IMG/VR virus record: IMGVR_UViG_3300042396_000723
Coordinates: 1-64,000 of that record
DNA: 64,000 nt
Direction: 5' to 3' (one strand)
Source: a virus
Shown: positions 8,602 through 53,015 of the stretch, one piece after another
Numbering within the stretch: the stretch's first letter is position 1
Layout: each line of letters opens with the position of its first letter
Position numbers and translations under genes: made by a program
The notes under the pieces: model-generated
Told to the model about the DNA's origin: nothing
Seen by the model: the letters and a program-made list of their open reading frames with translations, nothing else
Database searches by the model: none

Positions 8602-9138
8602 ATGTCAGATATTGTAAGATCAATCCGTGCAGAATTGAATCTAGGGGATAAAATTATTGATTGCTACCTATTCCCAGATGGAGAGAAACGGATCGGAATA
8701 GGTGGGGCGAGTATTGCTATCGGACGGAATAAAGAGTATTTGAGCAAGTCGGCTAAAAAGGGTACTAAAACGCTCAATGGCTTATGGGATATAGGTTACA
8801 CAGGTCGCCTAGAGGAAACCGAGATAAAAAATGATAGAGGTGCGACACGAAGTAAGACTATCTCAACCAGAGACTTTACAAAAGTAATCACATGGGACGC
8901 TGTAGTAAACAAAAATCAGAGTTCAATTGTCCTGTTAGCTGCTTTTGCTGAAACTGGGTTAGACGTAATTGTAGACAAGTTGTTCGACAATAAATCCGTA
9001 GATTTCCTACTGGAGAAAATTGTCCACTATACGAAATGGACTACAGAAGATCTCCAGGATGCCTTAAATGCCAACTATGACGATTGGAGCGTGATTGTGG
9101 AACAAGAGCAATTTTTGTTAGAGGGAGGGTTGAACTAA
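8602..9138 (+). CDS. hypothetical protein
   Basis: 178-aa ORF; stop overlaps the next start (TAATG). Confidence 0.55.
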   Translation: MSDIVRSIRAELNLGDKIIDCYLFPDGEKRIGIGGASIAIGRNKEYLSKSAKKGTKTLNGLWDIGYTGRLEETEIKNDRGATRSKTISTRDFTKVITWDAVVNKNQSSIVLLAAFAETGLDVIVDKLFDNKSVDFLLEKIVHYTKWTTEDLQDALNANYDDWSVIVEQEQFLLEGGLN

Positions 9139-9539
9139 TGAAACCCATCATAGAATCCAGAAAGTTTCCTATTCGGTTTTGCCACGTTATCCAGTGTGAA
9201 GGTTTTAGACTCCCTGATAGAGAATACCGAGTCACCATTGAATCAGCAATTTCTGTTGTCGGGTACGCCGAACTTAGACAACTTGATCCATTGACTGCGC
9301 TAAAGGAATTGGGGTTTAAGCATCGAGGGGAAATTATCAAAGTTAGAGATATTGAAACTCAAGTCATTTTTGAAACCTTGGGACTCCCCGATTTTAGTCG
9401 CCTAATATCTTTAGCATCAAGAATGGGGAAGCCTCACTCAGTGGCGTTTGTTGAGTCTATCGTTTCCACAGCCTTAGAAGATTGGTTTAGAGACTGCCAG
9501 AGGGAACAGATCGGGGTTGTAGGGGATTTAATCAGATAG
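9138..9539 (+). CDS. hypothetical protein
   Basis: In-frame ATG (MKPIIESRKF) overlapping the upstream stop; the track's longer GTG-start ORF from 9084 would overlap the previous gene. Confidence 0.5.
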   Translation: MKPIIESRKFPIRFCHVIQCEGFRLPDREYRVTIESAISVVGYAELRQLDPLTALKELGFKHRGEIIKVRDIETQVIFETLGLPDFSRLISLASRMGKPHSVAFVESIVSTALEDWFRDCQREQIGVVGDLIR

Positions 9540-12699: not shown

Positions 12700-13035
12700 C
12701 TAAATATCCCCATTACCTTCATCTTCTAAACTTTGGATATGCTCAAATACTACGCCCGTTTGATAGATTTGTTCATGGAGTGTGGCAATGGCTTTAACCG
12801 TCTCTACTGCCATCCTTCCGTGAATATGCGTCCCTGATTTGGTTAACTTGCCACAGGCTTTCATTGGGTCATCGCTCTTGGATGCTTGACTATAAGCCTT
12901 TGCACTAACAGCAATAGAAGATGATGCGATTACGTCTAACCCACGCAAATAAACCTCCATCCTTTTGATTCCATCCTCAAGATCCTTTTTATACTTCTCT
13001 CTATTTTCCTCAATCATTGATTTAATTGCCTCCAT
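12700..13035 (-). CDS. hypothetical protein (possibly longer, with N-terminal HTH; see findings)
   Basis: 111-aa ATG ORF; 51 in-frame codons upstream encode an HTH-like segment without an ATG/GTG/TTG. Confidence 0.45.
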   Translation of the reverse strand: MEAIKSMIEENREKYKKDLEDGIKRMEVYLRGLDVIASSSIAVSAKAYSQASKSDDPMKACGKLTKSGTHIHGRMAVETVKAIATLHEQIYQTGVVFEHIQSLEDEGNGDI

Positions 13036-13276: not shown

Positions 13277-13927
13277 ATGAGTAAACTTAAAATTACTGAG
13301 ACTGATATCTCTAAATTGACCCCTGATCCTAACAATGCAAGGAAAAGAACGCCCTTATCAGCAAGCGTTATTAGGAAATCAATTGAACAATTTGGGATGA
13401 CTCGGAGCATTGTCACCGATGAAAATGGCGTTATTTTGGCGGGTAACGGGGCGTTTGAAGAAGCGGGTCAATTGGGTATTGAAAGGGTGATCGTCGTCGA
13501 AACAACGGGTAATGAGATAGTGGCGGTGAAACGGACAAACCTTACTGCCGAACAGAAAACTCAATATGCCATTGCTGATAATACGGCTTCTGATTTCTCA
13601 ACATGGGATTTTGATATTTTGAGTGAGTTAACTCAGGAAATTGATCTATCTGAGTTTTTCCCTGATGATAAATTGAATGAATTATTAAAACAATTGGGGG
13701 ATAGCAAGAATGAAGGTATCAATGTTTTCCCTGATTATATCAACATGGACGATCAGGATGTAGAGACAACAGCAGAAAATTTTAGCTCGAATGTTAAGAG
13801 GAGTATAATTATTGATTTTCCTGCCGATGAGTATGACGAAGCTAAAAAACTATGTAACACAGCAAAGAAAAAAGGAGAAGATATTGGTGCTATTTTAGTA
13901 TCTGCACTAAAAGATGTTTTACAATAG
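13277..13927 (+). CDS. ParB/Srx-fold (ParB N-terminal domain-like) protein
   Basis: N-terminal ISKLTPDPNNARK...VILAGNGAFEEAGQLGIERVIVV resembles the ParB N-domain but with GNGA in place of GERR; acidic C-terminus. Confidence 0.55.
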   Translation: MSKLKITETDISKLTPDPNNARKRTPLSASVIRKSIEQFGMTRSIVTDENGVILAGNGAFEEAGQLGIERVIVVETTGNEIVAVKRTNLTAEQKTQYAIADNTASDFSTWDFDILSELTQEIDLSEFFPDDKLNELLKQLGDSKNEGINVFPDYINMDDQDVETTAENFSSNVKRSIIIDFPADEYDEAKKLCNTAKKKGEDIGAILVSALKDVLQ

Positions 13928-13951: not shown

Positions 13952-14746
13952 ATGAAAGAACAAAAATTAATAGTAACAAAACATGACTACAAAAGAAATG
14001 ATAGCCCAACAAGCCTCATTCCGAACGTAGTAGACTCAACTGTATTCCTTGATTCTATCGGTAACAAAGTTGGATTTTATCTCAGGAGTTTGCCGGATGA
14101 TGTTAATGATGTTTTAGAATATTGCAACAAAGAACTAAGAAGTGACAGAGTACCTAAATCGACAATGCACAGACAATTGCCACTGGGAACTAAAAGCAAG
14201 ACAGGAGCGTGGGAATATGATACTGTCGAACAGGAGTCTGTGATAATCGGATCTGTACCCGCAAAGCCTCACCAAAGAAGACCTTTTAATTCAATAAGTC
14301 AAGTTCATTTAAAAAATTCAGCGTCTGCTTTTATTAAAGGAATGATAGTATTAGCAAAGCTGTCAGAGAATCTGATTAAAGATATTATGCCAGAGCAGTA
14401 TTTTATTCAGAAAAAAATAATAGAAGAAAATGTTTTAAAAAAATTTAGATTTGGAGATTTATTTACTAGCTCTATTAGCAATTATAATATAGCTGCTAAT
14501 TATCATCAGGACAATAGAAATCTCAAGAACACTGTAAATGTTATTTACTCAAAAAAAGAAAATGCCAGTGGTGGAAATCTTCATGTGCCAGACTATGATT
14601 TGGTTTTTGATAGTGTTGACGGATCAATGATCTGTTATCCGGCATGGGCAAACTTACACGGAGTTACACCTATTTTACCCACAAAGAAAGGTGGATACAG
14701 GAATGGTATTGTTTTTTATCCATTAGGAGGTTTGCACAAAGAATAG
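13952..14746 (+). CDS. hypothetical protein, possible 2OG-Fe(II) dioxygenase fold
   Basis: C-terminal H-Q-D (YHQD), a distal His (LHGV) about 50 aa later and Arg (YRNGIVFY) fit the HxD...H...R spacing; weak assignment. Confidence 0.3.
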   Translation: MKEQKLIVTKHDYKRNDSPTSLIPNVVDSTVFLDSIGNKVGFYLRSLPDDVNDVLEYCNKELRSDRVPKSTMHRQLPLGTKSKTGAWEYDTVEQESVIIGSVPAKPHQRRPFNSISQVHLKNSASAFIKGMIVLAKLSENLIKDIMPEQYFIQKKIIEENVLKKFRFGDLFTSSISNYNIAANYHQDNRNLKNTVNVIYSKKENASGGNLHVPDYDLVFDSVDGSMICYPAWANLHGVTPILPTKKGGYRNGIVFYPLGGLHKE

Positions 14747-14822: not shown

Positions 14823-15470
14823 ATGAGTAAGCCTAAAATTACTGAGACAGGTATCAGCAAGTTGACGCTATCTATTCACGAAACATTTCAACAAACGATT
14901 CAAGGTGAAGGGTTTTGGTCTGGGACTCCGTGCGATTTCATCCGATTACACGGGTGTCCGGTGGGGTGTTGGTTTTGTGATACTGGGTATAGTTCACAAG
15001 AAACAGTTAAGCCTCCATCAAAAACTTTTAAAACTCTCGACAATTTACTCAGGGAGTTAAAATCTGAGCATATTGTGATATCAGGCGGGGAACCTTTTAT
15101 CCATAAAGAGTTGCCCGAATTGGTTGATGCTCTTAATGATGCTGATAAATTTGTTGCGATTGAGACATCAGGGAGTTTTTTTCAACCCGTTAAAGACACC
15201 TGGATAACCCTTTCCCCAAAAGAACATCTAAATGATCGTTACCCCGTTTTAGACGAGCTATGGGGACTCGCTAACGAAATAAAATTAATTATCTCCACAG
15301 GGCAGGAGATTGATTTTTACAAGAAAAAGTTAGATGCGTTAAATATTCCTATCTACTTACAGCCGGAATGGAATGGCATAAATAAAACCCTTCCTTTAAC
15401 AATTGAATTAGTGATAGAATATAAGTATAGACTTTCTTTGCAAACTCACAAATTAATAGGGGTTCAATAA
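14823..15470 (+). CDS. queE: 7-carboxy-7-deazaguanine synthase QueE (radical SAM)
   Basis: TIQGEG followed by CPVGCWFC (Cx3Cx2C) cluster; length 215 aa. Confidence 0.8.
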   Translation: MSKPKITETGISKLTLSIHETFQQTIQGEGFWSGTPCDFIRLHGCPVGCWFCDTGYSSQETVKPPSKTFKTLDNLLRELKSEHIVISGGEPFIHKELPELVDALNDADKFVAIETSGSFFQPVKDTWITLSPKEHLNDRYPVLDELWGLANEIKLIISTGQEIDFYKKKLDALNIPIYLQPEWNGINKTLPLTIELVIEYKYRLSLQTHKLIGVQ

Positions 15471-15880
15471 TGTGGACACTGGTTAAGAAATTCACCTTTG
15501 AAGCGGCACACCAACTAACTAAACATCAAGGCAAATGCTCAAGACTTCATGGACATAGTTGGGTTGGATATGTTTATGTTTCAGGTGATAACCTAAAACA
15601 ATCAGGTAGTGAAGCGGGGATGGTGATGGATTATGGCGAAATTAAAAAAGTTATCAATCTTTTGGTCGATAATTATTTAGACCACCATTTTTTAAATGAT
15701 ACGACAAAACTAGAAAACCCTACCAGTGAAGAAATAGCGAGATGGATTTATGATCGAATCAAGCTCAAGCTCCCAGGACTTACAGCAATCAGAATCGATG
15801 AAACTTGCACAAGTCAATGCTTCTACTCTGAACTCAGTGATTTCTCTAGTAGAATCCGCAATGGTGACATTATGGGGTGA
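15470..15880 (+). CDS. queD: 6-carboxy-5,6,7,8-tetrahydropterin synthase QueD
   Basis: FTFEAAHQL...CSRLHGHSW...LDHHFLND...ENPTSEEIARWIY...ETCTS, hallmark QueD/PTPS motifs. Confidence 0.8.
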   Translation: MWTLVKKFTFEAAHQLTKHQGKCSRLHGHSWVGYVYVSGDNLKQSGSEAGMVMDYGEIKKVINLLVDNYLDHHFLNDTTKLENPTSEEIARWIYDRIKLKLPGLTAIRIDETCTSQCFYSELSDFSSRIRNGDIMG

Positions 15881-16373
15881 ACTACCAGAAGGAATGAAAG
15901 AGACACCTTCTAGGGTTGTTAAATACTGGGTAGAGATGTCTCAAGGTATAGGCGTTGATCCTTCCGAGTCTTTGAGTAAAGTTTTTGATTGTGGATATGA
16001 CCAGGTAGTGATTGAAAAGGGTATTCCTTTCACTTCATTATGTGAACATCACCTATTACCCTTTTACGGTGTTGCTCATATTGGCTATATTCCTAATCAA
16101 AAAGTTGTAGGGTTATCAAAACTCCCAAGGGTTTTAGAGGTGTTGGCAACACAACCCCAAATTCAAGAAAGATTAACTGAACAGATGGGCGATTTGATTT
16201 TTGATAAGTTGAGTTGTAAAGGTGTTGTAGTAATTTTAGAAGCGGAACATAATTGTATGAGTTGTAGGGGAGTTAAAAAGCATGGGGTGAAAACTATCAC
16301 CAGTTGTTTAAGAGGTGTTTTTATGACTGATTCCGCAGCCAGGGCAGAAGTTTTAAACCTGATTAAAGGATGA
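15798..16373 (+). CDS. folE: GTP cyclohydrolase I FolE
   Basis: CEHHLLPF, GLSKLPR, QPQIQERLT and EAEHNCM motifs; start uncertain (in-frame alternatives 15750 or 15861); overlaps the queD 3' end in another frame. Confidence 0.75.
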   Translation: MKLAQVNASTLNSVISLVESAMVTLWGELPEGMKETPSRVVKYWVEMSQGIGVDPSESLSKVFDCGYDQVVIEKGIPFTSLCEHHLLPFYGVAHIGYIPNQKVVGLSKLPRVLEVLATQPQIQERLTEQMGDLIFDKLSCKGVVVILEAEHNCMSCRGVKKHGVKTITSCLRGVFMTDSAARAEVLNLIKG

Positions 16374-16557
16374 CATGAGAATACATTTGATTATTCCTAT
16401 TAAGGGGGGATGCAAGTTGACTTTGCATCAAATGTTTTATTAGAACAGGAGTACACCAATAATTTATTCTCTTTTGCTTATCAAGAGTACGAAAAATATC
16501 AGCATCAGTATTGGAATGGATTAATTAATCGCGTCAACAGTACAAGGAATGAAAACA

Positions 16558-17268
16558 ATGGCTGATAAATGTTTGGTAATTTTAAGCGGCGGTCAAGATA
16601 GTACGACTTGCTTGGCGATCGCAAAAAGTAAATTCAAAGAAGTTCACGCAGTAACTTTTAATTATGGTCAACGGCATTTAACCGAAATTGAGAGCGCGAT
16701 CAAAATAGCTGAAAAGTTAAACTTAGCTTCCCATGAAATTATCGATCTAGGTCAGGGGATTTTAAAAGGTAGCTCCCCACTGGTCAGCAACAACGAATTG
16801 GGAGTTTATAAGAATGTTGATGAATTACCTGGCGGGGTAGAACCAACTTTTGTTTATAGCAGGAATATTTTATTTTTAACTATTGCATCTAATCGCGCCG
16901 CCGTTATGGGTATTAATGATATCTTTATCGGTGTCTGTGAAGCTGATTATGCGGGTTATTTTGATTGCAGACTAGATTTTATCAATGTCATGTCGAAAGC
17001 GTTAGGAGAGGGTGTTTATGGTTCGCCCGATGCTTTTAAAATTCATACTCCGTTAATGAGCTTAACTAAAGCCGAATCGGTATTATTAGCTAAGGATTTA
17101 TTGGGTGATGATTTTGATTCAGTGATGGAATTAACCCATACTTGTTATGCGGGTGTTAAGGGCGGATGTGGTAAATGTCACGCTTGTTTGATTCGTGACA
17201 GAGGTTTTCAAGAGGCGGGAATAGTTGACCCAATATGGAAGTTTAGAAATGTATCTGTATTTAGTTGA
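16558..17268 (+). CDS. queC: 7-cyano-7-deazaguanine (preQ0) synthase QueC
   Basis: PP-loop SGGQDS and C-terminal zinc motif CYAGVKGGCGKCHAC; internal ATG preferred over track start 16549. Confidence 0.85.
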   Translation: MADKCLVILSGGQDSTTCLAIAKSKFKEVHAVTFNYGQRHLTEIESAIKIAEKLNLASHEIIDLGQGILKGSSPLVSNNELGVYKNVDELPGGVEPTFVYSRNILFLTIASNRAAVMGINDIFIGVCEADYAGYFDCRLDFINVMSKALGEGVYGSPDAFKIHTPLMSLTKAESVLLAKDLLGDDFDSVMELTHTCYAGVKGGCGKCHACLIRDRGFQEAGIVDPIWKFRNVSVFS

Positions 17269-18361
17269 TCACTCATCCGAACGCGGACAACGCAAAGTTC
17301 TTACTGAGGAGAGATATATAAGCTATTTGCAATCCTACGCATTCGTTGGACAAGCGGGTTTTATTGACACTCAAAAATATTGGGAGGAGTTATTGAGGAT
17401 TCATTTAGCTGATACAACAGCAAAACTAAATGGTGACGTTAACATAAAAGAAGTTTTAGTTGATGAAAACAAACCAGAACATCTGTTTAGTTATGCCTAC
17501 CAAAACCACGAATCTCAATGGTCTGATTCTTGGAATCAGACCATTGAGAAAAACAAGAATATGAATATACATTTAGCGGGTCATTCTGTTAACGTTGACA
17601 TGGACAAAGTGGTGAAGCCTTTACATGAAAACCATTTAACAACATTTGCAGACCAGAAAGAAGTTAAAGATACTTTGTCCATTTTGGACAAAGTATCTGA
17701 CTTAAGACCTAGAGTAATAATTGACTCAGGAGCATTTACAGCTTTTACAACTGGGAAAATAATTAATCCTAAAGATTATGCTACATGGTCTTTAGACTTT
17801 CAGAAGCGATGGGAGCATAAAATGAAATCTCTAAGTTTTATGAACCTGGACGTTATTGGTAATCAAGATGATAGCTGGAAAAATCAATCAATACTTGAAT
17901 CGTTAGGAATGAAACCGATTCCTATTATTACTTTTGGATGTGATAAAAAGCATTTAATTAGAGCATTAGATAACTATGATTATATAGCTTTAGGCGGTTT
18001 AGTTCCCCATAGTAGGAATAAAATCAAACTTCAAAAATGGTTAGATTATTGTTTCAACATAATCATGGGAAGATATAAAGAAACGGGTGTTATGTCAAGG
18101 ATTCATTTACTCGGTATAACAACTGATTGGGTACTGAAAAGATATCCCTGCTATAGTTCAGATTCGTCATCATGGGTTGCTTGTTTAAGGTTTGGCGGCG
18201 GTGCTGCTGCGGGTTTAGATAAAATACCCAGATATAAAGAATCAGATGCCGCGTTATCAGCAACAATTCACACTTTACGATCAGAGGTAGTAAAATATAA
18301 AAAGATGGAAACTGAAGCAACAAATTTATGGAAATCAAGGGGAATAATCTGGGATGACTAA
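17249..18361 (+). CDS. dpdA: DpdA-like DNA-guanine transglycosylase (TGT superfamily)
   Basis: VIIDSGAFT (cf. TGT DSGGFQ), YIALGGL and RIHLLGIT motifs; sits directly after preQ0 genes; ATG at 17249 preferred over TTG 17225. Confidence 0.65.
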   Translation: MYLYLVDHSSERGQRKVLTEERYISYLQSYAFVGQAGFIDTQKYWEELLRIHLADTTAKLNGDVNIKEVLVDENKPEHLFSYAYQNHESQWSDSWNQTIEKNKNMNIHLAGHSVNVDMDKVVKPLHENHLTTFADQKEVKDTLSILDKVSDLRPRVIIDSGAFTAFTTGKIINPKDYATWSLDFQKRWEHKMKSLSFMNLDVIGNQDDSWKNQSILESLGMKPIPIITFGCDKKHLIRALDNYDYIALGGLVPHSRNKIKLQKWLDYCFNIIMGRYKETGVMSRIHLLGITTDWVLKRYPCYSSDSSSWVACLRFGGGAAAGLDKIPRYKESDAALSATIHTLRSEVVKYKKMETEATNLWKSRGIIWDD

Positions 18362-19028
18362 TTATAAAGTTGAGCGTGGGGTTTTGGTTGATAGTATTGA
18401 TATTGAACCTAACCCGTGGAACCCCAACAAAACATCTGAACGTCAGCAAGAGGCGATCACAGAATCATTAAATGCCTACGGTCAAATCATAGAATTACTG
18501 GTTAGACCGCATCCAGAAAAAAAGGGTAAATATCAAGTTATTGACGGGGAACATCGTTTAATCTCATTGAGCAACAAAGAGCAAAAAATCTTTGTTAATA
18601 TTATTTACGACTTACCCGATGTCGAAGCAAAGAAATTAACCATTATCCTCAATGAAACCAGGGGTGATGCTGATAAAATCGAACTTGCTAAACTATTGGA
18701 AGATATAAATAATGATTTAGGGATTGAAACGATCATAGGGTTGCCATACAGTTCTAATGAATTGGATGAGTTAATAAAATTAGCTGATATTGATTGGGAT
18801 AATTTTGCTAAGGGTGATGATGGTGACGAATTTGATGAAAATGATCCTACGACTGAATCATCGGAATGGATTACTGTAGTTGTTAAAATCCCTTCTGATG
18901 CGATGGAGAGAATACAAGATGTGTACAACATCGTAAAAGATGAAAGGGGTACTTTACACAAAGATAAAGCGATTGCATGGGGACAGGTTTTGGAGTCTAT
19001 GTCTGCTGATTACTTAGCTGGAAAATAG
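18354..19028 (+). CDS. ParB/Srx-fold (ParB-like nuclease domain) protein
   Basis: IDIEPNPWNPNK...QVIDGEHRL resembles the ParB/sulfiredoxin DGxHR core; overlaps the dpdA stop by 8 nt. Confidence 0.55.
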   Translation: MTNYKVERGVLVDSIDIEPNPWNPNKTSERQQEAITESLNAYGQIIELLVRPHPEKKGKYQVIDGEHRLISLSNKEQKIFVNIIYDLPDVEAKKLTIILNETRGDADKIELAKLLEDINNDLGIETIIGLPYSSNELDELIKLADIDWDNFAKGDDGDEFDENDPTTESSEWITVVVKIPSDAMERIQDVYNIVKDERGTLHKDKAIAWGQVLESMSADYLAGK

Positions 19029-19431: not shown

Positions 19432-20165
19432 AACAATCACACAACACTTTAACAATAAATGAACATCGAAATATCTTCTGTTACGCCCCATCTAATTGAA
19501 GATTTAGCTAAGACAGGAATTTATTCTATTACACAAAAGAGTACGGGAAGAAAATATATAGGGAGTACATCGGAAAATTTTTACCAAAGATGGAGGCGAC
19601 ATTTAAGCGAACTAAAAAAAGGTAATCACCATAGCCAGTTTTTGCAACGAACCTGGGATAAATATGGCTCCGATGATTTTGTATTTGAGATTATTGAATT
19701 TCACGACGTACTATCTGTTTTAGATAATTTATCTTTATTGAATTTAGAACAGTCTTATTTGGATAAATTAACTCCAGAGTTCAATATTTCACCTTCTGCA
19801 CATAGTAGAAAAGGGGTGAAAGTATCGGAAGAAACCCGCACTAGAATCAAAGAAGCAAGAAAATATCAAGTAATGAAACCCGTTAAAGAAGAAACAAAGA
19901 AAAGAATTTCAGAATCAAATAAAGGAAAACATGAGGCAAGTATTGAAACTAGAAGAAAAATGGCTGAAGCAAAAAGAGGATTACCACTTAGGGCTATAAA
20001 TACTTATGTCTTAACATCTCCACTTGGTGTTGATATCACGGTAAATAACCTAAAAGATTTTTGTCGAGAAAATAATCTGAATTATCAAAACCTTTTTCAT
20101 GTTATAAGAGGGAATAGAAAATCTTCTCAGGGATGGAAAATAGTCAAGATAAATCCCTAGAGATG
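19412..20165 (+). mobile_element. candidate HEG-containing intervening sequence (possible group I intron) in antirepressor gene
   Basis: GIY-YIG ORF lies exactly between the two antirepressor halves; boundaries are inferred from the protein break, not from intron structure. Confidence 0.3.
19459..20160 (+). CDS. GIY-YIG homing endonuclease with NUMOD3-like repeats
   Basis: GIYSIT...KYIGST, RWRRHL, and repeated S-E-x-T/N-K-G-K motifs (VSEETRTRIKEARK / ISESNKGKHEASIETRRKMAEAKRG). Confidence 0.85.
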   Translation: MNIEISSVTPHLIEDLAKTGIYSITQKSTGRKYIGSTSENFYQRWRRHLSELKKGNHHSQFLQRTWDKYGSDDFVFEIIEFHDVLSVLDNLSLLNLEQSYLDKLTPEFNISPSAHSRKGVKVSEETRTRIKEARKYQVMKPVKEETKKRISESNKGKHEASIETRRKMAEAKRGLPLRAINTYVLTSPLGVDITVNNLKDFCRENNLNYQNLFHVIRGNRKSSQGWKIVKINP

Positions 20166-51420: not shown

Positions 51421-51984
51421 ATGACCGCAGCAACCAAGAAGATAATTGAAAGAATCTTAAAAATTGGTGAGTGGGTAGAGATTGACCCACATAAACACCG
51501 CCCATCTTATCTAATAAGAGGTACAGCATGGCGAGTTGAAAGTTTCAATGTATTAAAACAAACCTGTCAAGTAACTAACGAAAAAACCAGATCGGAAACC
51601 CTAGACTTTGAGGAGGTTTCCGACTCATCCCCATTCAAAAAAACAGATATTGTGCAATTAAAAAAGGATAGCCGTTACATCGGACGGGTGATTATGTGCC
51701 GGGGGAATAAAATCAAAATTCAGTGGGCGAAAGGATTGGCAGAATCCTTAGACTCGGACAAGATAAAACTATTTATTCAGATGGTCAAAGGGGAACAAAT
51801 CCCCCTCGGAAATTACGCTTTCCAGAAAGGCGATCATGTCAAAACTACAGACAAGAATTTTGGCAATGTAATCCTCACTGTAAAAGAATGCTTACCCTCT
51901 GGAATGGTGGTGTTGAGTTCATCAAACGATCCTAATTTATTGCTCCCCGGCTGTGGCTTAACAATTGTTGAGGAGGGTTTCTAA
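51421..51984 (+). CDS. hypothetical protein
   Basis: 187-aa ORF. Confidence 0.5.
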   Translation: MTAATKKIIERILKIGEWVEIDPHKHRPSYLIRGTAWRVESFNVLKQTCQVTNEKTRSETLDFEEVSDSSPFKKTDIVQLKKDSRYIGRVIMCRGNKIKIQWAKGLAESLDSDKIKLFIQMVKGEQIPLGNYAFQKGDHVKTTDKNFGNVILTVKECLPSGMVVLSSSNDPNLLLPGCGLTIVEEGF

Positions 51985-53015
51985 TGCCAACATTCGCAAC
52001 ATTATTCATGGGCGGAGGCGGTGCAGATTTGGGGTTAGAGGCCGCAGGGTTTAAGTCTTTATGGGGAATTGAAAGAGATCCTAAAATTGCAGAAGTAGCA
52101 CGATTAAATTTCCCAAATACCAAAGTATTTAATTCTTGCGCAGGAGACATAAACCCCCGCAGTCTTCCCTATGTTGACCTGCTTTGGATGAGTCCCCCGT
52201 GCCAACAGTATTCAAACGCTAGACGGGGTAATTTAGGCGATCACAAAGACAAGGACGCGGGGCTGTACTGTAGCAGTTATATCGCAGCGATTGATCCTCG
52301 ATGGGTAGTTTTAGAAAACGTCCCTGGCTACTCAAAATCACCTGTATTCGAGAAAATCCTACAATCCTTAATTCGCCACGGATATCGCTATCATTGGTTA
52401 ATACTTGACGCGGCGGATCACGGGGTTCCCCAAAACCGGAAACGGTTGATTATGTGGGCAGTTAAAAATGATCAACCTCTCCCCTATTTCCCCGAATCAA
52501 AACCCAAAAAGGGATGGTATCAAGCCATTGCTGACTTAATCCCAGAAATGCAGGACTGTGAGCTTGCAGACTGGCAGATTAAGCGACTAAATGAATTGGG
52601 TTATTTACCAGAAAAAGCCTGGATTGATATTGGGAAACAACTCATTAGACAGGCTACAGTTCGGGAGTCAAACGATCCAAGTTTTACTATTGTGAGTGGT
52701 CATGTTAACTCGCATTCTCCTATCCTGTTAATCCCCCGAGCGGGAGCTTGCATCAAGAATATTCTCCCGACTCCACAGAACAAACCCTGCCCAACAATTC
52801 GAGCTATGAAGGATGTTTCAACCCATTGGGCGGACATCGTGCAGGGAAGCCAAATTAAACGAATTAGTCAGAAAGCGACGGCACGGCTCCAGACTTTCCC
52901 CGACTCCTATCAATTCCCAGAATCCAAAACTTTAAGCCAACAAATAATAGGAAACGCCGTGCCTCCGTTATTGGCTAAAGAATTAGGTCTGGCAATCTTA
53001 AAATCAATTAACTAA
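51984..53015 (+). CDS. DNA (cytosine-5)-methyltransferase
   Basis: Motif I LFMGGGG, motif IV SPPCQQYS (PCQ), motif VI VLENVPG. Confidence 0.85.
   Translation: MPTFATLFMGGGGADLGLEAAGFKSLWGIERDPKIAEVARLNFPNTKVFNSCAGDINPRSLPYVDLLWMSPPCQQYSNARRGNLGDHKDKDAGLYCSSYIAAIDPRWVVLENVPGYSKSPVFEKILQSLIRHGYRYHWLILDAADHGVPQNRKRLIMWAVKNDQPLPYFPESKPKKGWYQAIADLIPEMQDCELADWQIKRLNELGYLPEKAWIDIGKQLIRQATVRESNDPSFTIVSGHVNSHSPILLIPRAGACIKNILPTPQNKPCPTIRAMKDVSTHWADIVQGSQIKRISQKATARLQTFPDSYQFPESKTLSQQIIGNAVPPLLAKELGLAILKSIN

What the first reader, a model, noticed from the sequence alone, without database searches (positions are those of the whole stretch)
13952..14746. Possible 2OG-Fe(II) dioxygenase inside the modification island, with a Dcm methyltransferase elsewhere in the genome
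The 264-aa protein has an H-x-D (YHQD), a distal His about 50 residues later and an Arg about 14 after that, the spacing of a double-stranded beta-helix oxygenase. It lies between a ParB-fold gene and queE. The phage also encodes a C5-cytosine methyltransferase (51984-53015), so a TET/JBP-like oxidation of 5mC, or an oxidative modification of the deazapurine, is conceivable. The fold assignment is weak.
Basis: inference. Interest (0 to 1): 0.65.

Follow-up and report, generated by a model that had tools for sequence, protein, structure and literature searches.

The report
Phage TET/JBP thymine dioxygenase with ParB partner
The gene is a real TET/JBP-type DNA dioxygenase, paired with its own ParB-like helper as in recently described phage enzymes that turn thymine into 5-hydroxymethyluracil, and it lies next to the deazaguanine genes only because modification cassettes are swapped at this spot.

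Summary
ORF 13952-14746 encodes 264 aa with H185-x-D187, H236 and R250, all invariant in 124 homologues. The fold guess is right: Pfam Tet_JBP (E 4e-8), an AF2 model with pLDDT 93, and best structural matches to CcTet, TET2 and NgTET1.

The functional reading needs changing. The gene forms a conserved pair with the upstream ParB-like gene (13277-13927). About 75 of 89 homologue loci show this pairing. In relatives the space between the two genes holds thymidine-hypermodification genes (kinase, GATase, amino-acid:DNA transferase), TET-associated glycosyltransferases or FkbM methyltransferases. None of these loci holds preQ0 or DpdA genes, and only 4 hold a C5-methyltransferase.

A 99%-identical allele is followed by a ParB-methyltransferase gene instead of queE. 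The same deazaguanine cassette, with its own ParB, occurs in other phages without ParB1 or the TET gene. The first 15 codons of queE are a leftover ParB 5' end, which marks the recombination junction.

Best reading: a ParB-partnered 5-methylpyrimidine dioxygenase making 5hmU on phage DNA. Oxidation of Dcm-made 5mC is a plausible side activity. Action on deazaguanine is very unlikely. Caveats are no C-terminal extension and a unique S252G change at a 2OG-contact position. It is a new member of a known kind, of moderate interest.

The parts
13277..13927 (+). ParB1: 216-aa ParB-like protein, the predicted activator or partner of the dioxygenase. It has an N-terminal ParB nucleotide-binding-type domain, an acidic linker and a small C-terminal domain, and it is too short to hold an HTH DNA-binding domain.
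   Evidence: PHROG 620 E 4e-31. AF2 N-domain pLDDT 85-94; Foldseek neighbours are pNOB8 ParB-N, B. subtilis ParB-CDP, and M. xanthus and C. crescentus ParB. A homologue lies upstream of the TET gene in 75 of 89 loci. It is 73% identical to the ParB beside the 91%-identical TET in L004.
13952..14746 (+). 5mYOX: 264-aa TET/JBP-family Fe(II)/2-oxoglutarate dioxygenase, a predicted thymine (5-methylpyrimidine) dioxygenase acting on DNA.
   Evidence: Pfam PF12851 E 4.3e-8. 2698 homologues, nearly all pre-annotated PF12851. AF2 pLDDT 93.3, pTM 0.88. Foldseek top hits are CcTet, TET2, CMD1 and NgTET1 at E 6e-11 to 9e-9.
14504..14512 (+). Codons for H185-Q-D187, the first two Fe(II) ligands. They align with TET2 H1382-R-D1384. 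N190 (14519-14521) aligns with TET2 N1387.
   Evidence: Invariant in 124 of 124 homologues. Profile alignment to TET2.
14657..14659 (+). Codon for H236, the third Fe(II) ligand (aligns with TET2 H1881).
14699..14707 (+). Codons R250-N251-G252. R250 is the 2OG-binding Arg (TET2 R1896). G252 occupies the position of TET2 S1898 and is S or T in all 123 other homologues.
   Evidence: PMC6625141 classes R1896 and S1898 among the Fe/2OG ligand residues.
14823..14868 (+). Recombination scar. The first ~15 codons of queE (MSKPKITETGISKLT) derive from the 5' end of the ParB-methyltransferase gene that follows the TET gene in close relatives.
   Evidence: DNA alignment of the window with L004, L092 and L106. 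Nucleotide homology to L092 ends at 14745 and homology to L106 begins at 14874.
14823..19028 (+). A separate neighbouring module: the dPreQ0 cassette queE (14823-15470), queD (15470-15880), folE (ORF 15750-16373), queC (16549-17268), dpdA (17225/17249-18361) and ParB2 (18354-19028).
   Evidence: Pfam, NCBIfam and PHROG hits. The whole block, including ParB2, recurs in L106 and L108 without ParB1 or TET. The gene set matches the dPreQ0 phages of Hutinet 2019.
51984..53015 (+). Dcm-type C5-cytosine methyltransferase in the replication module. It is a possible source of 5mC as a secondary substrate.
   Evidence: PF00145 E 3e-54. Best PDB sequence hits are DNMT1, M.HaeIII and M.HhaI. Asn is retained in motif X (GNAV), so it is not a CmoX carboxymethyltransferase.

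Best explanation
ORF 13952-14746 encodes a TET/JBP-family Fe(II)/2-oxoglutarate 5-methylpyrimidine dioxygenase (5mYOX). It works as a two-gene module with the ParB-like protein encoded just upstream (13277-13927). Shown: H185, D187 and H236 align with the Fe(II) ligands of TET2, R250 with its 2OG-binding Arg, and Y256 with the Tyr that TET2 places at position 1902; the fold is that of a TET enzyme. From my own knowledge of the TET2-DNA structure, not a tool result, that Tyr stacks on the flipped-out base. Inferred: after replication the enzyme hydroxylates the C5-methyl group of thymine in phage DNA to give 5-hydroxymethyluracil. ParB1 would help it act on double-stranded DNA, as shown for 5mYOX176/ParB176. 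No kinase, amino-acid:DNA transferase or glycosyltransferase was found among the ~35 larger window ORFs that were scanned, so 5hmU (perhaps with some 5fU and 5caU) would be the end product unless tailoring genes lie elsewhere. Characterised phage enzymes of this kind oxidise T and 5mC about equally in vitro, so 5mC made by the phage Dcm is a plausible secondary substrate. The adjacent queE-queD-folE-queC-dpdA-ParB2 block is an independent dPreQ0 cassette that was recombined into the slot downstream of the dioxygenase. The two modules are neighbours, not one pathway.
For: Family and fold. Pfam Tet_JBP scores E 4.3e-8. There are 2698 homologues, nearly all PF12851. The AF2 model has pLDDT 93.3, and the best structural matches are CcTet, TET2, CMD1 and NgTET1, ahead of FTO and AlkB. 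The catalytic residues are invariant in 124 of 124 sequences and align to TET2 H1382, D1384, H1881 and R1896.

ParB pairing. A ParB1 homologue lies upstream in 75 of 89 loci, and most of the exceptions are cut by a contig end. About 26 loci have direct adjacency as here. The same ParB-then-TET order occurs in Mycobacterium, Rhodococcus and Prochlorococcus phages. ParB1 has the size (216 aa against 183-218 aa) and the structural neighbours of the 5mYOX-associated ParBs in O'Toole et al..

Thymine direction. In homologues about 50% identical, the ParB-TET interval holds a P-loop kinase, GATase_6 and ADDT (PF18724) in 8 loci, with 2 more nearby. It holds TAGT in about 12 loci and an FkbM methyltransferase in about 23. 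Only 4 of 89 loci hold a C5-MT. O'Toole et al. showed T to 5hmU activity and ParB activation for related enzymes.

Independence from the deaza genes. None of the other ~100 loci held shows preQ0 or DpdA genes. The only ones that do are L091, which is the window phage itself, and Rosebush L090, which I fetched as a DpdA reference and which has no TET gene. L092 carries an allele with only 2 substitutions but is followed by a ParB-N6/N4 methyltransferase, and homology stops at the stop codon. L106 and L108 carry the deaza cassette plus ParB2 directly after the same left-flank gene, with no ParB1 or TET. The queE 5' end is a ParB-derived chimera.
Against: No biochemical data exist for this protein or for its ~260-aa subtype. 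The enzymes whose lengths I saw in the preprint's Foldseek table are 285-316 aa. The protein lacks the ~45-50-aa C-terminal extension that O'Toole et al. found only in ParB-dependent enzymes and that was required for activity: the tail after L258 is 6 aa here against 50 aa in the actinophage homologues. ParB dependence is therefore inferred from gene linkage alone. The window allele has Gly at position 252, where all 123 other homologues have Ser or Thr; this position aligns with TET2 S1898, a 2OG contact, so activity could be reduced. Three of the five closest relatives with enough downstream sequence have a C5-MT within about 1 kb (L006, L008, L011), and the phage has its own Dcm, so a larger role for 5mC cannot be excluded. 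The Pfam score of the single sequence (33.0 bits) is just below the gathering cut-off of 34.9.
Confidence: 0.7

Rival explanations
1. The enzyme is mainly a 5mC dioxygenase (TET-like). It oxidises the 5mC installed by the phage Dcm (51984-53015) to 5hmC and further products, as in the clade A/B phage TETs of Burke et al. 2021.
For: The phage encodes an intact C5-MTase. Among the closest relatives, L006, L008 and L011 have a C5-MT gene within about 1 kb of the TET gene. The characterised phage T-dioxygenases 5mYOX97 and 5mYOX176 also oxidise 5mC about as well as T in vitro. The best structural matches are 5mC-oxidising TETs.
Against: Dcm is 37 kb away in the replication module beside DnaB, not next to the gene. 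Phage 5mC dioxygenases have an immediately neighbouring C5-MT. Only 4 of 89 homologue loci hold a C5-MT, while at least 15 hold 5hmU-specific tailoring genes (kinase with ADDT). The residue aligned with TET2 H1904, a DNA-substrate recognition residue, is an invariant Leu in this family and in the actinophage ParB-linked enzymes. Several close relatives carry an N6/N4 methyltransferase, not a C5 one, next door.
Confidence: 0.15
2. The gene is attenuated or on its way to loss in this lineage. After the phage gained the dPreQ0 cassette, the dioxygenase acquired S252G at a 2OG-contact position and contributes little or nothing.
For: G252 is unique among 124 sequences. The 99%-identical allele in the relative without the deaza cassette (L092) has Ser. 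The aligned TET2 S1898 is classed with the Fe/2OG ligand residues, and S1898F is listed as an activity-impairing variant.
Against: The ORF is full length, and every other catalytic and invariant residue is intact. Only two substitutions separate it from L092, so there is no sign of decay. The 2OG-binding Arg is retained. From general knowledge of RxS-motif oxygenases, loss of the Ser hydroxyl usually raises the Km for 2OG rather than abolishing activity. ParB1 is also intact.
Confidence: 0.08
3. The enzyme tailors the 7-deazaguanine base, or an intermediate of its synthesis, as part of the neighbouring pathway.
For: The only support is position. The gene lies 76 nt upstream of queE on the same strand with no predicted terminator between them.
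Against: No other homologue locus carries preQ0 or DpdA genes. A near-identical allele exists with a methyltransferase in place of the cassette. The cassette exists in other phages without this gene. The junction carries a recombination scar. The gene set (FolE, QueD, QueE, QueC, DpdA, no amidotransferase and no QueF) predicts dPreQ0, whose nitrile carbon has no C-H bond to hydroxylate (chemical reasoning). The fold and active-site residues match enzymes that act on 5-methylpyrimidines.
Confidence: 0.02

Closest known systems
ParB-dependent phage T-dioxygenases (5mYOX176/ParB176 and relatives; O'Toole et al., PNAS 2026, PMC13229309)
   Same: It belongs to the TET/JBP (PF12851) family and has the same top structural neighbours (TET2, CcTet, NgTET1). 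A cognate ParB-like gene of about 200 aa lies immediately upstream, and its N-domain resembles the Mx, Cc and Bs ParB nucleotide-binding domains. Family members are linked to P-loop kinases, GATases, amino-acid:DNA transferases, glycosyltransferases and FkbM O-methyltransferases, and often lie near the terminase gene.
   Different: It is shorter (264 aa against 285-316 aa) and lacks the C-terminal extension reported as exclusive to, and required by, the ParB-dependent enzymes. Its region corresponding to the 'variable insertion' differs from the actinophage type. It carries S252G. No tailoring genes were found in the window. Activity and ParB dependence are untested.
Mycobacteriophage cluster B and Rhodococcus phage ParB-TET/JBP cassettes (for example PRodriguez gp1-gp5, Tonitrus gp1-gp7)
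   Same: The gene order is ParB then TET/JBP at the start of a DNA-modification block. The homology is clear (25-28% identity, all catalytic residues shared). These phage groups also show alternative cassettes at the same slot: Rosebush has ParB-DpdA-QueC/D/E-FolE where PRodriguez has ParB-TET-GT.
   Different: Those proteins have the 50-aa C-terminal tail and lack residues ~49-73 of the window protein. In those phages the two cassettes are alternatives. Here both are present in tandem.
Phage 5mC dioxygenases, clades A/B (TET43 and others; Burke et al., PNAS 2021, PMC8256090)
   Same: Same superfamily and chemistry, and both act on phage DNA after replication. This phage also encodes a C5-MTase.
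   Different: Those enzymes have an immediately adjacent C5-MT and are GpC-specific 5mC hydroxylases. Here the C5-MT is 37 kb away, and the family is ParB-linked and associated with thymidine-hypermodification genes.
Trypanosome JBP1/2 and eukaryotic TETs (TET2, NgTET1, CcTet)
   Same: The HxD...H...R active site, the DSBH fold and the aromatic residue aligned with TET2 Y1902 are shared.
   Different: It has no Cys-rich or J-binding domains and is a minimal 264-aa single-domain protein. Leu replaces TET2 H1904. It needs, or is at least linked to, a ParB partner.
Bacterial DpdA/DpdB (Dpd system)
   Same: This is a parallel for the neighbouring module only. A TGT-like DpdA is encoded next to a ParB-fold protein (ParB2), and in Salmonella the ParB-fold DpdB ATPase is required for preQ0 insertion.
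   Different: ParB2 showed no match in the PADLOC search, which may or may not include a DpdB model, and it has no detectable sequence similarity to ParB1. Its role is inferred from linkage.

Membership tests
TET/JBP (PF12851) Fe(II)/2OG dioxygenases (5mYOX superfamily) | HxD...H facial triad for Fe(II) | tested here: met
   H185, D187 and H236 are invariant in 124 of 124 homologues and align with TET2 H1382, D1384 and H1881.
TET/JBP (PF12851) Fe(II)/2OG dioxygenases (5mYOX superfamily) | 2OG-binding Arg about 14 residues after the distal His (RxS motif) | tested here: met
   R250 is invariant and aligns with TET2 R1896.
TET/JBP (PF12851) Fe(II)/2OG dioxygenases (5mYOX superfamily) | Ser or Thr of the RxS motif (TET2 S1898) contacting 2OG | tested here: not met
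   The window has G252. The other 123 homologues have S (115) or T (8), and the 99%-identical L092 allele has S.
TET/JBP (PF12851) Fe(II)/2OG dioxygenases (5mYOX superfamily) | Double-stranded beta-helix fold closest to TET-type enzymes | tested here: met
   AF2 pLDDT 93.3 and pTM 0.88. The top 26 Foldseek PDB hits are all CcTet, TET2, CMD1 or NgTET1 (E 6e-11 to 9e-9), followed by FTO and AlkB at about 1e-6.
TET/JBP (PF12851) Fe(II)/2OG dioxygenases (5mYOX superfamily) | Pfam model score above the gathering threshold | tested here: inconclusive
   33.0 bits against a cut-off of 34.9, with E 4.3e-8. Nearly all of the listed homologues carry a precomputed PF12851 annotation.
TET/JBP (PF12851) Fe(II)/2OG dioxygenases (5mYOX superfamily) | Oxidation of the C5-methyl group of T or 5mC in DNA | not testable with these tools
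   This needs expression followed by nucleoside LC-MS.
ParB-dependent phage T-dioxygenase subclass (O'Toole et al. 2026) | Co-located cognate ParB-like gene | tested here: met
   ParB1 ends 24 nt upstream. A ParB1 homologue lies upstream in 75 of 89 homologue loci.
ParB-dependent phage T-dioxygenase subclass (O'Toole et al. 2026) | Partner ParB has a nucleotide-binding-type N-domain and a C-terminal domain but no DNA-binding HTH domain | tested here: inconclusive
   The N-domain is confident and matches ParB N-domains. At 216 aa the protein falls within the 183-218 aa of the tested partner ParBs. The C-terminal part is modelled at low confidence (pLDDT 57-75) and shows a conserved motif shared with the marine partner ParBs.
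ParB-dependent phage T-dioxygenase subclass (O'Toole et al. 2026) | C-terminal extension beyond the last conserved residue | tested here: not met
   The tail after L258 is 6 aa in the window (family median 7, range 4-20) against 50 aa in PRodriguez gp2 and Tonitrus gp3.
ParB-dependent phage T-dioxygenase subclass (O'Toole et al. 2026) | Linkage to thymidine-hypermodification genes (P-loop kinase, GATase, amino-acid:DNA transferase) | tested here: inconclusive
   Not found among the ~35 larger window ORFs scanned, about a third of all ORFs. Present between ParB and TET in 8 loci of ~50%-identical homologues, with 2 more nearby, plus 5 loci with a kinase and an unassigned 333-aa gene.
ParB-dependent phage T-dioxygenase subclass (O'Toole et al. 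2026) | Activity on dsDNA requires ParB | not testable with these tools
   This needs co-expression with and without ParB1.
Phage 5mC dioxygenases, clades A/B (Burke et al. 2021) | Immediately neighbouring C5-cytosine methyltransferase gene | tested here: not met
   Dcm lies 37 kb away. A C5-MT is present in 4 of 89 homologue loci.
7-Deazaguanine (Dpd / phage dPreQ0) pathway component | Co-occurrence with dpdA and preQ0 synthesis genes across homologues | tested here: not met
   Absent from the other ~100 loci held. The only exceptions are L091, which is the window phage itself, and Rosebush L090, fetched as a DpdA reference and lacking a TET gene. The two modules occur separately in L092 and in L106/L108.

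The most novel reading that the evidence does not exclude
The window protein represents a large, so far unassayed short subtype (~260 aa, no C-terminal extension) of ParB-linked 5-methylpyrimidine dioxygenases. In this cyanophage it acts alongside an independently acquired DpdA/ParB2 dPreQ0 cassette and a Dcm, so the virion DNA would carry modifications on three bases (5hmU, dPreQ0, and 5mC or 5hmC). More generally, the island would show ParB-fold proteins acting as exchangeable, enzyme-specific loaders for three unrelated DNA-modifying enzymes (TET/JBP, DpdA, methyltransferases), swapped as ParB-plus-enzyme cassettes at one genomic slot.
Probability: 0.35. Interest if true: 0.55.

Novelty: new member of a known kind. 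Interest (0 to 1): 0.35.

Why it matters
It turns a weak fold guess into a firm assignment and corrects the functional hypothesis. The dioxygenase belongs with its ParB partner, not with the deazaguanine genes.

The natural variants found here form a ready-made comparison set for asking what each modification contributes to evading host defences, and whether ParB partners are enzyme-specific. The variants are ParB1-TET with a methyltransferase, the deaza cassette alone, and both together.

The work also flags a propagating annotation error: TET/JBP proteins are labelled 'queuine tRNA-ribosyltransferase' or 'DpdA-like' in PHROG 6059 and in RefSeq and GenBank phage records. That error could lead to false predictions of deazaguanine DNA.

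If the mass spectrometry confirms it, this would be a phage whose DNA combines 5hmU with dPreQ0 and 5mC. I found no report of that combination in the papers searched.

Tried and rejected
- A direct sequence search of the PDB with the single protein gave only noise. The family profile was needed to align it with TET2.
- I tried to place the protein in the published clades (A/B, C1, C2, D or 'E'). The papers' sequences and contig identifiers are not in the held text or supplements. Only enzyme lengths could be compared.
- I tested whether ParB2 is a recognisable DpdB. NCBIfam gave only generic ParB and RepB hits and PADLOC gave none. I do not know whether either library holds a DpdB model. The DpdB-like role rests on linkage only.
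- I tested whether ParB1 and ParB2 are paralogues. They show no significant similarity.
- I looked for tailoring enzymes (kinase, ADDT, glycosyltransferase) among ~35 of the larger window ORFs, about a third of all ORFs, with Pfam and PHROGs. None was found and most of these ORFs have no annotation.
- I checked whether the 'Dcm' could be a CmoX carboxymethyltransferase because of its SPPC motif. This was rejected: Asn, not Arg, is present in motif X, and the best matches are ordinary C5-MTases.
- The promoter and terminator scan of the island was uninformative.
- I considered 6mA oxidation because CcTet binds 6mA DNA and close relatives have an N6/N4 methyltransferase next door. I did not pursue it, as nothing in the family's gene neighbourhoods beyond that adjacency supports it.
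Full report
**1. The observation**

The ORF at 13952-14746 (+) is real and encodes 264 aa. I aligned 120 database homologues together with the Prochlorococcus, Mycobacterium and Rhodococcus phage proteins. H185, D187, N190, H236, R250, Y256, L258, R74 and R110 are identical in all 124 sequences. The motif is therefore a conserved active site, not a chance pattern.

The stated neighbours are correct. A ParB-fold gene lies at 13277-13927 and queE at 14823-15470. These are followed by queD, folE, queC, a DpdA-type transglycosylase (PHROG 887) and a second ParB-fold gene at 18354-19028. The C5-cytosine methyltransferase at 51984-53015 is confirmed and has all its catalytic motifs. It sits in the replication module next to a DnaB helicase, 37 kb away.

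**2. What the protein is**

Pfam gives Tet_JBP (PF12851) at E 4.3e-8. The score of 33.0 bits is just under the curated cut-off of 34.9. The large protein database holds 2698 homologues at E <= 1e-3, and nearly all of those listed are pre-annotated as PF12851.

An AlphaFold2 model built on 36 sequences is confident (pLDDT 93.3, pTM 0.88). Its top 26 Foldseek matches in the PDB are all TET-type enzymes: CcTet, human TET2, CMD1 and NgTET1, at E 6e-11 to 9e-9. FTO and AlkB follow about four orders of magnitude weaker.

A profile of the family aligns with TET2 as follows:

| Window residue | TET2 residue |
|---|---|
| H185 | H1382 |
| D187 | D1384 |
| N190 | N1387 |
| H236 | H1881 |
| R250 | R1896 |
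| Y256 | Y1902 |

R1896 and S1898 are listed among the Fe/2OG ligand residues of TET2, and H1904 among its DNA-substrate recognition residues (PMC6625141). The 'weak' fold assignment is therefore correct and now well supported.

**3. The conserved partner is the ParB gene, not the deazaguanine genes**

In sequenced phages the homologues always follow a ParB-like gene. Examples are Cyanophage MED4-117 (ParB, FkbM methyltransferase, TET, then terminase), Mycobacterium phage PRodriguez (gp1 ParB, gp2 TET/JBP, then glycosyltransferase, deacetylase and kinase) and Rhodococcus phage Tonitrus (ParB, then TET, aGPT-Pplase2 and kinase).

I fetched about 100 loci that encode homologues from IMG/VR, metagenomes and genome bins, and searched them with the window's proteins.
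- Of the first 89 loci, 75 have a ParB1 homologue upstream. Most of the rest are cut by a contig end.
- Four have a C5-methyltransferase.
- None has QueE, QueD, FolE, QueC or DpdA.
- The later loci added only the window phage itself (L091). Rosebush (L090) also shows these genes, but I fetched it as a DpdA reference and it has no TET gene.

Between ParB and the TET gene the relatives (~50% identical) carry a variable tailoring slot:

| Content of the ParB-TET interval | Loci |
|---|---|
| Nothing (direct adjacency, as in the window) | about 26 |
| FkbM-type methyltransferase | about 23 |
| TET-associated glycosyltransferase (PF20691) | about 12 |
| P-loop kinase + GATase_6 + amino-acid:DNA transferase (PF18724) | 8, plus 2 nearby |

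The kinase and transferase chemistry acts on 5-hydroxymethyluracil, so this family feeds thymidine hypermodification.

**4. Literature**

O'Toole et al. (PNAS 2026, PMC13229309) mined PF12851 in IMG/VR and showed two things. Phage 5-methylpyrimidine dioxygenases ('5mYOX') oxidise thymine in DNA to 5hmU. One subclass requires a co-encoded ParB-like protein for activity on double-stranded DNA.

Their partner ParBs have a nucleotide-binding-type N-domain and a C-terminal domain but no DNA-binding domain. They measure 183-218 aa and have M. xanthus, C. crescentus and B. subtilis ParB as nearest structures. ParB1 of the window is 216 aa. Its confidently modelled N-domain hits the same structures. 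Its C-terminal motif (VKRSIIIDFPADEYDEA) is shared with the ParBs that accompany the marine homologues.

Both of their purified enzymes oxidised T and 5mC about equally in vitro. Only about 6% of the contigs they mined carry a C5-MT, and their co-occurrence table lists no deazaguanine genes. Neither that paper nor Burke et al. 2021 mentions deazaguanine.

**5. The two modules are independent and were joined by cassette exchange**

- L091 and L105 are the same phage as the window (99.5-100% nucleotide identity) and show the same arrangement.
- L092 carries a TET allele with only two substitutions (S221N, G252S) and an 89%-identical ParB1. Downstream it has a ParB-N6/N4-methyltransferase fusion, and nucleotide homology with the window stops at 14745, the TET stop codon.
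- The 91%-identical alleles (L004, L093, L102, L103) also have this methyltransferase. L011 has a short ParB plus a C5-MT instead.
- Conversely, L106 and L108 (contigs of 78 kb and 42 kb) carry queE-queD-folE-queC-dpdA-ParB2 (DpdA 99% identical, ParB2 85%). Nucleotide homology to the window runs only from 14874 to 18995. The cassette sits directly after a homologue of the window's left-flank gene (12700-13035), with no ParB1 or TET.
- The junction is visible in the sequence. The first ~15 codons of the window's queE (MSKPKITETGISKLT, 14823-14868) match the 5' end of the displaced ParB-methyltransferase gene. From about 14870 onward the sequence matches the queE of L106.

The same logic appears in cluster B mycobacteriophages. 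Rosebush has ParB-DpdA-QueC/D/E-FolE where PRodriguez has ParB-TET-GT, and their ParB N-domains are 55% identical.

ParB2 always travels with dpdA. In Salmonella the ParB-fold ATPase DpdB is required for DpdA to insert preQ0 (PMC10164549; PMC5699537). ParB2 is therefore plausibly the phage counterpart, but this is inference from linkage. Sequence searches gave only generic ParB hits, and ParB1 and ParB2 are unrelated in sequence.

**6. Mechanism proposed**

Shown:
- TET/JBP fold and an intact Fe(II) triad.
- An intact 2OG-binding Arg.
- A conserved ParB partner.
- Family linkage to 5hmU-tailoring genes.
- Independence from the deaza cassette.

Inferred: the enzyme hydroxylates thymine in replicated phage DNA to 5hmU, with ParB1 enabling action on duplex DNA. 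No tailoring gene was found among the ~35 larger window ORFs that were scanned, about a third of all ORFs. So 5hmU, perhaps with some 5fU and 5caU, would be the end product unless tailoring genes lie elsewhere.

The Dcm is an ordinary SAM-dependent C5-MTase, not a CmoX carboxymethyltransferase. 5mC is therefore available and may be a secondary substrate. [quoted passage not shown]

**7. Caveats**

- The protein lacks the ~50-aa C-terminal extension that O'Toole et al. found only in ParB-dependent enzymes and that was needed for activity.
- The tested enzymes whose lengths I could see are 285-316 aa, so this ~260-aa subtype appears untested.
- The window allele has Gly252 where every other homologue has Ser or Thr, at the position of the TET2 2OG contact S1898. 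This may lower activity.
- Three of the five closest relatives with enough downstream sequence have a C5-MT within about 1 kb, so a larger role for 5mC in this sub-lineage cannot be excluded.

**8. Rivals**

| Reading | Confidence | Main reasons |
|---|---|---|
| Mainly a 5mC dioxygenase | about 0.15 | Supported by the phage Dcm and the dual activity of characterised enzymes. Weakened by the distance to Dcm, the rarity of C5-MTs near homologues, the 5hmU-type tailoring genes, and Leu at the TET2 H1904 position. |
| Attenuated enzyme (S252G) | about 0.08 | Rests on one substitution. |
| Deazapurine tailoring | about 0.02 | Contradicted by the reciprocal separation of the modules, the recombination scar and the chemistry of a nitrile substituent. 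|

**9. Novelty and verdict**

The gene is a new member of a known kind: the phage ParB-linked TET/JBP 5-methylpyrimidine dioxygenases. These were recognised bioinformatically before that work (its ref. 27; Burke et al. credit Aravind and coworkers) and demonstrated experimentally in 2026.

Several points are mildly new:
- The short architecture without the C-terminal extension.
- The tandem presence of a TET/ParB module and a DpdA/ParB module in one island, with a mapped recombination junction.
- The prediction of a phage DNA that combines 5hmU, dPreQ0 and 5mC.

Interest is moderate to low (0.35). The substrate ideas are only partly right (5mC) or not supported (deazapurine).

Noticed in passing
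window 14823-14868: The first ~15 codons of queE (MSKPKITETGISKLT) are a remnant of the 5' end of a ParB-family gene, the ParB-methyltransferase that follows the TET gene in relatives. The window's QueE is therefore an N-terminal chimera, and this marks the left junction of the cassette swap.
   Followed up: yes
window 14705-14707 (codon 252 of the dioxygenase): Gly occurs where all 123 other homologues have Ser or Thr. The position aligns with TET2 S1898, a 2OG contact. The near-identical allele in a relative without the deaza cassette (L092) has Ser.
   Followed up: partly
window 18354-19028: The second ParB-fold gene (ParB2, with a DGEHR motif) overlaps the end of dpdA and travels with the deaza cassette in other phages (L106 and L108, 85% identical). 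It may be a phage analogue of the bacterial ParB-fold ATPase DpdB. It is unrelated in sequence to ParB1.
   Followed up: partly
window 19459-20160: A GIY-YIG/NUMOD3 homing-endonuclease-like gene lies at the right edge of the deaza cassette. It is absent from the related cassette in L106 and might have helped to mobilise the region.
   Followed up: no
L001 6956-7741 (Cyanophage MED4-117 CPWG_00022); L002 813-1691 (PRodriguez gp2); PHROG 6059: These proteins are named 'queuine tRNA-ribosyltransferase' or 'DpdA-like tRNA-guanine transglycosylase' in RefSeq, GenBank and PHROGs, but their only Pfam hit is Tet_JBP. The likely cause is annotation transfer between alternative cassettes at the same locus in cluster B mycobacteriophages.
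   Followed up: yes
window 51984-53015: The C5-methyltransferase has the SPPC motif used to recognise CmoX carboxymethyltransferases, but it keeps Asn in motif X (GNAVPP) and best matches DNMT1, M.HaeIII and M.HhaI. It is an ordinary methyltransferase.
   Followed up: yes
L001 6258-6959 and ~23 other loci (for example L015, L025, L036): An FkbM-type methyltransferase (Methyltransf_21) sits between ParB and the TET gene in about a quarter of the homologue loci. This could mean O-methylation of the 5-hydroxymethyl group (5-methoxymethyluracil).
   Followed up: no
L104 (Planktothrix phage PaV-LD) 6001-7361: PaV-LD ORF098 is a ParB-N6/N4-methyltransferase fusion at the syntenic slot. Its ParB part is 86% identical to ParB1, and the nucleotide match starts about 240 nt upstream of the annotated start, so the annotated ORF looks about 53 codons short. 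PaV-LD has no TET gene here.
   Followed up: partly
window 15470-15880 and 15750-16373: The longest folE ORF overlaps the end of queD by 131 nt. The GTP cyclohydrolase I domain starts only at residue 47, so the real folE start is probably further downstream.
   Followed up: no
window 8602-9138 and 9138-9539: Two adjacent genes are paralogues of the same family of unknown function (PHROG 32599).
   Followed up: no
L102 (contig JBIPLY010000606.1, labelled as an Acetobacteraceae MAG) and L103 (Terrimicrobiaceae MAG): These contigs carry the phage ParB1-TET module. L102 also has 4.2 kb that is 83% identical to the window's putative 1682-aa tape-measure gene (assigned by size and by synteny with PaV-LD; it has no Pfam or PHROG hit). 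They look like cyanophage contigs mis-binned into bacterial genome bins.
   Followed up: no
L090 1-792 against L002 1-816: The ParB proteins of Rosebush (partner DpdA) and PRodriguez (partner TET/JBP) are 55% identical across the N-domain but diverge in the C-terminal part. The C-terminal part might therefore carry the partner specificity.
   Followed up: partly
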